Shown piece after piece: positions 28,813-42,128 of a stretch of 64,000 nucleotides of DNA. Source of the DNA: Octopus vulgaris. Taxonomy: Eukaryota. Under the pieces are notes generated by a model that saw only the letters and a list, made by a program, of their open reading frames with translations, ran no database searches and was not told the origin of the DNA. The stretch's first letter is position 1. Each line of letters begins with the position of its first letter. The translations under genes and the position numbers were made by a program. The stretch lies in NCBI GenBank assembly GCA_951406725.2, contig OX597829.1, positions 44,206,001 through 44,270,000 of the forward strand, read 5' to 3'.

Positions 28813-28814
<2 letters not shown>

Positions 28815-28897
28815 CAATTGCAGCGTGGAAGGTGTTTATAAGCCATTTAAGAAACACACAAAAACCGTTAGATTCACTTCAACATTTAAATTCAATT
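28813..28897 (-). mobile_element. Family G repeat, truncated (lacks the hammerhead part)
   Basis: aacaattgcagcgtggaaggtgtttataagccatttaagaaacacac, as at 34497; next to (TA)n. Confidence 0.8.
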
Positions 28898-34458: not shown

Positions 34459-34498
<40 letters not shown>

Positions 34499-34806
34499 AC
34501 AATTGCAGCGTGGGAGGTGTTTATAAGCCATTTAAGAAACACACAAAAGCCGTTCGATTCACTCCAACATTTAAGTTTAATTTGTCAAAATATTTTCGTC
34601 GCTAAAATCCGCGACCTGTTCACTGACAAAGTCCGTGCTGCATCATATATACATATATACGGTGGGCTTCTTTCAGTTTCTGTCTACCAAATCCACTCAC
34701 AAGGCTTTGGTCGGCCCGAGGTTATAGTAGAAGACACTTGCCCAAGGTGCCACGAAACCATGTGGTTGGTTAGCAAGCTACTTACCACACAGCCACTCCT
34801 GCGCCT
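34230..34806 (-). mobile_element. SINE C containing a family G insertion
   Basis: Reverse complement of C; G element at 34497-34643 lies inside the (TA)n. Confidence 0.9.
34581..34630 (-). ncRNA. Minimal type I hammerhead ribozyme variant (G3:C8 core) in a family G element (34497-34643)
   Basis: Minus strand TTTGTCA-GTGAACA-G-GTCGC ggatttta GCGAC-GAA-AATATT-T-TGACAAA: 7-bp helix I, 5-bp helix II, palindromic helix III. Confidence 0.75.
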
Positions 34807-40407: not shown

Positions 40408-40539
40408 GTTATGTCATGTTTATTTATTAAATAATAAGCTTTAGATGTAGTCCAATTCCTTTGCTTGTTGATCTATGGTTTTCTCTATTTTCTGATTATT
40501 TAAATTTTTACATCTATATATATATATGCAGCACGAAGC

Positions 40540-40590
40540 TTTGTCAGTGAACAGGTCGCGGTCTCAAAGCGACGAAAATATTTTGACAAA
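40540..40590 (+). ncRNA. Minimal type I hammerhead ribozyme variant (G3:C8 core) in a family G element (40526-40670)
   Basis: TTTGTCA-GTGAACA-G-GTCGC ggtctcaaa GCGAC-GAA-AATATT-T-TGACAAA; stems identical to the 34581 copy, loop II differs. Confidence 0.75.
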
Positions 40591-40668
40591 TTAAATTTAA
40601 ATGTTGAAGTGAATCTAACGGCTTTTGTGTGTTTCTTAAATGCCTTAAAACACCTTCCACGCTGCAAT

Positions 40669-40742
<74 letters not shown>

Positions 40743-41282: not shown

Positions 41283-41999
41283 ATGTATATATGTATATAT
41301 GTATGTAGAGATTGTTAAGCGTATGTGTGTATACTTTAAGGTTATACGTATATTTGTGAGTATGTGTGTCTATATGATTGCGTGTACTTGTATATATGTA
41401 TAAGGTTATATGTCTATATATGTGACGTTGTATCCATTCACCGTTAGACAGTGGTGAGAGGGACAAACGCACACACACACACACACACATATATATGTGT
41501 GTGTGTGTCTATATAAATGTATATGCGTGTATATATATATATATATATACAACCTTCAAGAAGGTAACAGTCATGTATACAACTTGAACTGACAAATACC
41601 ATTACATAAACATACGTTCACGTGTACATACACATGTACACACACACAGACACACTCTCCTAAATACTCACATACAGTCGTAAGTACATAAGTACATACA
41701 TACATGCGTATAGGCATGCACACATGCATGCGCACATACATGTACACACATACATACACACGCACATACATACATACACACATACATACATACATACGCA
41801 CATACATACATACATACACACATACATACATACATACATACACACACATACATACATACATACATACACTACACACATACATGCAAACATGCATACATGT
41901 ACACACATACATACATACATACATACATACATACATACACTCACACATACATAGGTACATACGTACATATATATCATGAACTAACTGTTACTTTCTCAG

Positions 42000-42120
42000 A
42001 TGCAGCACGAAGTTTTGACAAATTAAATTTTGACAAATTAAATTTAAATGTTGAAGTGAATCTAACGGTTTTTTGTGTGTTCTTAAATGGCTTGTAAACA
42101 TCTTCCACACTGCAATTGTT
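42000..42120 (+). mobile_element. Family G element with the hammerhead deleted
   Basis: atgcagcacgaagt joins directly to tttgacaaattaaa; the rest matches 40584-40670. Confidence 0.8.
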
Positions 42121-42128
42121 TATATATT

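What the first reader, a model, noticed from the sequence alone, without database searches (positions are those of the whole stretch)
40526..40670. Family G: ~145-bp (TA)n-inserted element with a G3:C8 compensatory hammerhead core
Seen: TTTGTCA-GTGAACA-G-GTCGC-loop-GCGAC-GAA-AATATT-T-TGACAAA. This is hammerhead topology with CUGANGA replaced by GUGAACA, so C3 and G8 are both swapped. The second copy (34581-34630, minus) has identical stems and core but a different loop II (ggatttta vs ggtctcaaa). Known: C3 and G8 form a Watson-Crick tertiary pair in the active fold, and the double swap rescues activity lost by either single mutation. Inference: a natural, selected ribozyme variant with a self-complementary AAUAUU helix III for dimerisation and a UUU cleavage triplet. 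Standard CUGANGA searches would miss it. Four family members occur in this window (28813, 34497, 40526, 42000), all touching (TA)n.
Basis: partly seen in the sequence, partly recalled or inferred. Interest (0 to 1): 0.85.

Follow-up and report, generated by a model that had tools for sequence, protein, structure and literature searches.

The report
Swapped-core hammerhead in a Penelope-like retrotransposon
This is the front end of a very common jumping gene, and it carries a small hammerhead-shaped RNA in which two paired core bases have traded places, while its sister families use two other matching pairs at the same spot, so the fold is likely kept by selection and likely still cuts its own RNA slowly.

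Summary
The motif is real: type I hammerhead layout, G3 at 40547, C8 at 40552, predicted cut after U17 (40583). It is not a separate 145-bp element but the 5' UTR and first codons of an RT + GIY-YIG Penelope-like element (Neptune/Nematis type). The exact G3:C8 core matches 5,534 places. Sister families in the same genome carry C3:G8 (3,374 matches) and U3:A8 (5,203) at the same position; nine metagenome relatives carry C:G (5) or U:A (4). All 12 aligned rows keep a Watson-Crick 3:8 pair through at least five two-sided changes, which supports selection on the fold. Against a strict need: cleavage is untested, only 1 of 98 sampled copies starts near the cut site, dead copies decay evenly over core and loop, and 196 copies carry a pair-breaking G3:G8. 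Only two of the window's four copies hold the core. Natural U3:A8 and engineered G3:C8 are published; I found no natural G3:C8 family, but the most relevant survey (Lunse et al.) was not available. Verdict: new variant of a known kind.

The parts
40526..40670 (+). Subfamily A copy: pLTR/5' UTR of a Penelope-like element from about the inferred transcription start to the first of two 3' end points in the ORF start
40540..40590 (+). Type I minimal hammerhead: stem I 40540-46/40584-90, core 40547-53, extra G 40554, stem II 40555-59/40569-73, loop II 40560-68, GAA 40574-76, palindromic helix III 40577-82, U17 40583
   Evidence: sequence; fold; layout; covariation
40547..40552 (+). G3 (40547) and C8 (40552): reversed core pair
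40640..40670 (+). First ten codons of the element's ORF (early stop in this dead copy); intact in the tandem copy L077
40671..40738 (+). (TA)n at the 3' junction, the likely insertion target
   Evidence: 64 of 98 sampled copies have TA runs at the 3' junction
34498..34644 (-). Subfamily B copy (99.3% identical to the pLTR of the tandem element L077), intact G3:C8 hammerhead, G3 at 34623, other loop II
28813..28897 (-). 5'-truncated copy that begins just 3' of the cut site; no hammerhead core
41426..42121 (+). Longer copy: low-complexity 3' UTR of the parent element, then pLTR with the core deleted; TATA-like run near 41968-41974 and TCAG at 41996-41999 (inferred start site, or a splice acceptor)

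Best explanation
The stretch is a short, dead copy of the front end of a Penelope-like retrotransposon (RT, zinc-finger linker, GIY-YIG endonuclease), and it holds a minimal type I hammerhead with a naturally reversed G3:C8 pair that likely still supports slow self-cleavage after U17. Shown: the motif lies about 60 bases after the common 5' end and about 55 bases before the ORF's ATG, and recurs about 4.3 kb downstream in tandem pLTR-ORF-pLTR elements. Inferred: transcription starts at the AG just before 40526; the element's protein starts reverse transcription at two internal sites in the first 10 and 30 codons (the known PLE 'tail'), which gives 145- and 205-base copies inserted at TA-rich sites, often with an inverted partner. 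Inferred: helix III cannot close in one molecule, so two hammerheads (tandem transcript, or two RNAs, probably helped by the ORF protein as in the Anolis PLE) pair through AAUAUU and cut; this would uncap or split read-through RNA rather than make the template for insertion. Selection in source elements has kept a Watson-Crick pair at 3:8 whatever its identity (G:C here, C:G and U:A in the sisters).
For: Parent: RT and EN ORF upstream of the motif (Pfam GIY-YIG E 1e-4), open frames up to 1,025 aa, tandem copy L077 with the motif at both ends, CX3CxxC linker. PLE hallmarks: two 3' end points (36 and 62 of 98), inverted 5' partner in 58 of 98. Covariation: family C (54% aa identity to B) has C3:G8, family D (53-54%) has U3:A8; 98 of the first 100 listed C matches are C3:G8; 5,203 exact U3:A8 matches. 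Nine metagenome lineages: five C:G, four U:A. Pair 3:8 formed in 12 of 12 aligned rows; whole structure 90% paired, covariation score 0.78 against 0.21 in shuffles and at most 0.17 when slid. At least 5 changes on the RT/EN tree, always at both positions. Subfamilies A and B (81-87% aa identity) differ at 0 of 42 core and stem positions but about 5 of 9 in loop II. Engineered C3G/G8C partly restores cleavage of a PLE hammerhead (PMC11167929).
Against: No cleavage assay and no raw RNA reads. Only 1 of 98 sampled copies starts within 3 bases of the cut site and 85 span it uncut. 196 copies carry G3:G8, more than all three substitutions at G3 together (166) and about twelve times the mirror G3-to-C change (10 of the first 100 of those 166), with distinct flanks, on several subfamily backgrounds and in RT/EN-bearing copies on C16: an intact pair is not required in cis for short-term spread. 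A-versus-B conservation of the core is not significantly above the linker after it (0 of 42 against 3 of 43, p 0.24). The double-hammerhead fold (-27.0 kcal/mol) is predicted less stable than two monomers (2 x -14.5) or the best dimer (-32.0). PLE minimal hammerheads cleave poorly in vitro (PMC4209133). Sister motifs were found with my own descriptor and by eye, and 6 of 18 metagenome loci with an ORF end showed no usable motif.
Confidence: 0.72

Rival explanations
1. The fold is kept for a non-catalytic job (protein binding, RNA dimer formation or translation control in the 5' UTR) and the G3:C8 version hardly cleaves.
For: No 5' ends at the cut site; G3:G8 copies spread; ribozyme-dead mutants insert normally in vitro in the Anolis PLE (PMC11167929); family C has C9 in place of A9.
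Against: The 3:8 pair belongs to the active fold and is kept through five two-sided changes, with U4, G5, A6, A13 and A14 invariant in 12 of 12 rows; N17 is never G in the 13 motifs laid out.
Confidence: 0.17
2. G3:C8 is a neutral accident in one source element whose ribozyme had already died; the pairing is coincidence.
For: G3:C8 arose once on the tree; a mismatched G3:G8 state is mobile.
Against: All other core positions, both stems and the palindrome are intact in two subfamilies whose proteins differ by 13-19%; a common stem I variant turns a U-A pair into U-G and keeps pairing (10 of 54 A copies; some are duplicates of one insertion); sisters show the same rule with other letters.
Confidence: 0.06
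3. A self-standing non-autonomous element (SINE or retrozyme) of about 145 bases that replicates as its own RNA.
For: 36 of 98 copies share one 5' end and copy number far exceeds that of the ORF.
Against: Its 3' ends fall inside the parent ORF at two points that match those of families C and D; no head-to-tail arrays of the unit were seen in the fetched loci; its ends do not lie at the cut site.
Confidence: 0.03
4. The shared 5' end is a 3' splice site, not a transcription start: copies come from spliced or intron-released RNA, as the Drosophila Penelope intron ends next to helix I.
For: Branch-point-like ACTAAC and a pyrimidine run precede the AG; PMC4209133 describes an intron ending at helix I.
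Against: No shared upstream exon in 28 truncated copies; the AG itself is often copied, and 13 of 28 have G where the template has C one base further 5', as a copied cap would give (about 5 of the 13 are explained by the inverted partner, judged by eye).
Confidence: 0.2

Closest known systems
Minimal type I hammerheads in pLTRs of metazoan Penelope-like elements (Cervera and De la Pena 2014, PMC4209133)
   Same: Position in the pLTR, one extra base between 9 and 10.1, G10.1-C11.1, palindromic weak helix III, frequent U17, thousands of single truncated copies.
   Different: Core is G3:C8; the 56 representatives of their Fig. S3 have C3 (53) or U3 (3), none G3. Helix I is longer (7 bp).
Natural U3:A8 core variants (Perreault 2011, PMC3088659; Schistosoma Cercyon PLE, PMC4209133)
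   Same: Compensatory change at the 3:8 pair; family D and four metagenome relatives here are of this type.
   Different: U3:A8 needs two transitions and keeps pyrimidine 3/purine 8; G3:C8 needs two transversions and reverses the pair.
Engineered C3G/G8C double mutant of the Anolis Poseidon PLE hammerhead (Frangieh 2024, PMC11167929)
   Same: Same swap in a PLE hammerhead; same two internal RT start sites, tail and AT-rich targets; no RNA or DNA ends at the cut site.
   Different: Here the swap is the wild type of a successful family; the element is of the zinc-finger-linker type; activity untested.
Neptune/Nematis clade EN+ PLEs (Craig 2021, PMC8557442)
   Same: RT, CX2-5CxxC linker, C-terminal GIY-YIG with CCHH-like residues, pLTR tandems, inverted 5' partner, tail, (TA)n bias.
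   Different: Long low-complexity 3' UTR; Neptune versus Nematis not separated here (Neptune is my guess from recalled motifs).
Non-LTR retrozymes (PMC7229834, search listing only; bioRxiv 10.64898/2026.07.22.740005)
   Same: Non-coding, PLE-related, type I hammerhead.
   Different: No tandem arrays of the unit seen; ends are not at the cut site.

Membership tests
Hammerhead ribozyme (type I, minimal PLE type) | Three-helix junction in type I order around the core | tested here: met
   Stems I and II fold and covary across families; helix III only as palindrome
Hammerhead ribozyme (type I, minimal PLE type) | Literal CUGANGA core sequence | tested here: not met
   GUGAACA; no Rfam hammerhead hit
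Hammerhead ribozyme (type I, minimal PLE type) | Watson-Crick pair between positions 3 and 8 | tested here: met
   G:C, C:G, U:A in 12 of 12 rows; at least 5 paired changes
Hammerhead ribozyme (type I, minimal PLE type) | U4 G5 A6, A9, G12 A13 A14, A15.1-U16.1, G10.1-C11.1, N17 not G | tested here: met
   All present in both intact window copies
Hammerhead ribozyme (type I, minimal PLE type) | Palindromic helix III allowing a double hammerhead | tested here: inconclusive
   Palindrome present and covarying, but the dimer fold is not the predicted minimum
Hammerhead ribozyme (type I, minimal PLE type) | Self-cleavage 3' of N17 | not testable with these tools
   No assay; genomic 5' ends do not mark the site; only contigs available
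EN+ Penelope-like element | Single ORF with RT then C-terminal GIY-YIG endonuclease | tested here: met
   (RVT_1 only weakly, E 0.049)
EN+ Penelope-like element | pLTR tandem, inverted 5'-truncated partner, optional 3' tail in the ORF start | tested here: met
   L077, L083; 58 of 98 inverted; 62 of 98 with tail
Neptune/Nematis clades | CX2-5CxxC linker between RT and EN | tested here: met
   Seen in families B, C, D; definition from PMC8557442
Neptune clade proper | RT phylogeny with reference Neptune and Nematis elements | not tested
   No named reference elements were in hand; the tree holds only unnamed relatives
Non-LTR retrozyme | Tandem non-coding units each with a hammerhead, ends at cut sites | tested here: not met
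   Ends map to the inferred start site and to the ORF start; no arrays seen in fetched loci

The most novel reading that the evidence does not exclude
The first natural hammerhead family with a reversed G3:C8 core, active and amplified to thousands of copies, in a clade where three sister families in one genome use three different Watson-Crick pairs at 3:8; the mobile G3:G8 copies show how the inactive intermediate can be crossed, and a fixed U17 (avoiding a G3-C17 mispair) may have allowed the swap.
Probability: 0.45. Interest if true: 0.65.

Novelty: new variant of a known kind. Interest (0 to 1): 0.52.

Why it matters
It is a natural version of the classic rescue experiment on the hammerhead's C3:G8 tertiary pair, with three Watson-Crick states in neighbouring families of one genome. 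It gives comparative evidence that PLE minimal hammerheads are under selection for the active fold although their role in transposition is unknown, supplies young elements with long open frames and matched scaffolds for testing that role, and shows that ribozyme searches should ask for a 3:8 pair rather than CUGANGA. It does not add a new ribozyme class or a new kind of element.

Tried and rejected
Rfam on the window and on the stretch: no hammerhead family listed (one search showed only the best 150 of 453 matches, all microsatellite noise). Terminal-inverted-repeat (MITE) reading of the weak 5'/3' complementarity: rejected, the ends follow PLE rules. C2 pair 3.4 kb apart (L061): a local duplication, not a pLTR-ORF-pLTR. 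Copy-level conservation test: uninformative. 5' ends as a record of cleavage: none (one search counted overlapping loci twice and was redone). Sequencing runs: no RNA holder on record; four runs laid were contigs, so no start, end, strand or splice evidence; they show the family under four organism labels and the G3:C8 core in loose-end consensuses of three runs, 45 difference rows not shown. Search for further sister families with a distant protein returned only long-ORF hits at places or scores matching families B and C (not fetched). Careful tree did not finish; quick tree used; L065 dropped for short coverage, and seven rows without a known core were not counted. Earlier scan findings: nothing. 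Papers not held: Lunse et al. RNA Biol 14:1499, Przybilski and Hammann RNA 13:1625, Martick and Scott 2006.

Full report
Observation. The sequence at 40540-40590 has every hammerhead element in type I order, with G at position 3 (40547) and C at position 8 (40552), an extra G before stem II, the palindrome AAUAUU and U17 at 40583. The copy at 34581-34630 (minus) differs only in loop II. Stems I and II are in the predicted fold. My descriptor scored both copies 19; 15 Markov shuffles of the window gave none at 18 or more. Rfam gave no hammerhead hit on the stretch. Of the four window copies, 28813 starts just past the cut site and 42000 lacks the core.

What the element is. The window lies in a 2.8-Gb genome; the best named protein relative is from Octopus vulgaris and looks like family C below, so the host is probably an octopus. 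A pattern with the eight core bases left open matches 6,792 places (control 2); the exact G3:C8 core 5,534. Copies that run further upstream pass through a low-complexity UTR into a GIY-YIG endonuclease and an RT. Subfamily B (loop as at 34497) has open frames up to 1,025 aa and a tandem copy, L077, with the hammerhead at both ends 4.3 kb apart; subfamily A (loop as at 40526) is more decayed. The protein has a CX3CxxC linker before the endonuclease, which PMC8557442 gives for Neptune and Nematis clades. Downstream of the hammerhead the ORF starts (40640 in the window), and its first residues resemble those of the sister families.

Anatomy of copies. I took the 100 listed hits of an anchor 3' of the cut site (5,864 in all), fetched their loci and kept 98 distinct copies. 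Their 3' ends fall at two points in the ORF start (36 and 62), as described for the Anolis PLE (PMC11167929); 58 have an inverted 5' partner; 67 touch (TA)n. 36 begin within -5..+1 of 40526-equivalent, 6 run upstream, 12 that begin at +24 are one insertion carried in a larger duplicated unit (six checked), and 1 begins within 3 bases of the cut site. A TATA-like run lies 24-30 bases before the shared start, and 13 of 28 truncated copies have a G where the template has C just before the AG; after setting aside about five explained by inversion (by eye) and the nine with C, 8 of 14 remain (p 0.005 against 22%). I read this as a capped transcription start (inferred); a splice acceptor is the rival. 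Either way most copies were made from uncut RNA.

Is the swap selected? Among dead copies the core is no better kept than its surroundings (A copies, non-CpG mismatch: core 15 of 577, stems 31 of 845, loop II 19 of 395, linker 105 of 2,580), as neutral decay predicts. The informative comparison is between source lineages. A and B differ at 0 of 42 core and stem positions, about 5 of 9 in loop II (p 5e-5) and 3 of 43 in the linker (p 0.24) (differences counted by eye). An RT search of the genome (40 loci fetched) gave two sister families at 53-54% identity: C with C3:G8 and D with U3:A8 at the same place before the ORF. These are family-wide states. Of 40 metagenome loci, 18 with the ORF end were examined: 12 loci in nine lineages held a motif (five C:G, four U:A; one, L207, has G12 changed), six held none usable. 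In the 12-row alignment (eight of the nine lineages plus A, B, C, D; L201 left out) pair 3:8 is C:G 6, U:A 4, G:C 2, never unpaired; 10 of 11 pairs change on both sides; no shuffle of 500 reached the covariation score, and slid structures fall to 0.17 or less. On a quick RT/EN tree A+B is sister to C+D (support 99) and the pair changes at least five times, both positions together. Caveat: motifs were found with my descriptor and by eye.

Results against. 196 copies carry G3:G8, against 166 for all changes at G3, of whose first 100 only 10 are C3 and none C3:G8. 76 of the first 100 listed lie on C1-C15 and 24 in 0.6-6.7 Mb of C16. The dispersed ones I could view among 53 fetched have their own flanks and occur on A, intermediate and B backgrounds, slightly more diverged (5.6% against 3.8%); C16 copies include RT/EN-bearing ones (part's output was cut). 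So a pair-breaking form recurs or has been copied; whether it is a relic of the C:G to G:C path or a later loss is open (on the tree G:G rows sit inside A, weakly resolved). The double-hammerhead fold is not the predicted minimum. No cleavage or raw-read evidence could be had.

Mechanism. Shown: position, anatomy, covariation. From the literature: the 3:8 pair belongs to the active fold, G8C costs about 10^5-fold and C3G partly restores it (PMC8495972); the double mutant partly restores a PLE hammerhead that cuts only with its protein and is not needed for insertion in vitro (PMC11167929); PLE minimal hammerheads cut weakly as dimers (PMC4209133). Inferred: slow, dimer- or protein-assisted cleavage that uncaps or splits tandem RNA. 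PMC3884650 notes, without data, that G3-C8 works better with G17 than with C17; G3:C8 copies here have U17 in all sampled copies covering it, whereas family C has both C17 and U17, a hint from one lineage only.

Novelty. Natural U3:A8 is published (PMC3088659, PMC4209133); G3:C8 I found only as an engineered mutant. Searches. None of 56 representatives in Fig. S3 of PMC4209133 has G3. Lunse et al., the large survey of PLE hammerhead variants, was not held and may already list it. What I saw: PMC4209133 parts 1-2 of 4 and supplement file 2 in part (file 1 not searchable); PMC11167929 parts 1-2 of 4; PMC3088659 section 8 and passages; bioRxiv 10.64898/2026.07.22.740005 parts 1-2 of 5 and passages, supplements not seen; PMC8557442, PMC6765202, PMC3884650, PMC10085705, PMC8495972 passages; PMC7229834 listing only.

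Verdict. A real, probably selected natural G3:C8 hammerhead in the pLTR of an abundant Penelope-like element; a new variant of a known kind, interest 0.52.

Noticed in passing
window about 54136-54184, minus strand: A canonical minimal hammerhead (CUGAUGA, extra A, 6-bp stem II, ACGU palindrome, U17) of a different repeat, probably another PLE remnant.
   Followed up: no
G000 C16, about 0.6-11 Mb (L062-L068): Local burst of subfamily A copies with long upstream UTR, many with G3:G8; 108 genome-wide matches to the upstream 35-mer are strongly enriched on C16.
   Followed up: partly
L121, L149, L150, L158, L167, L185: One inverted pair of this element is a passenger in a larger unit duplicated many times on C1 with identical flanks (12 of 98 sampled hits start at the same point).
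   Followed up: partly
L083-L086, L300-L311: Family C is young (many 1,310-aa open frames); its hammerhead has C9 in place of A9, a bulged stem I, and both C17 and U17 versions.
   Followed up: partly
L199:4966-5016; L198:2490-2541: Further core variants in metagenome relatives: U15.1-A16.1 in L199, and U3:A8 with C9 in L198.
   Followed up: no
window 40527-40532 with 40660-40665: The 5' end of the unit can pair with the bases just before the first 3' end point, closing the 145-base RNA into a panhandle; it might set the RT start or favour inverted partners.
   Followed up: no
L072:1735-1785 and minus strand near L072:5860: Two further U3:A8-like hammerhead layouts with an ACCGGT palindrome in an unrelated repeat.
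   Followed up: no
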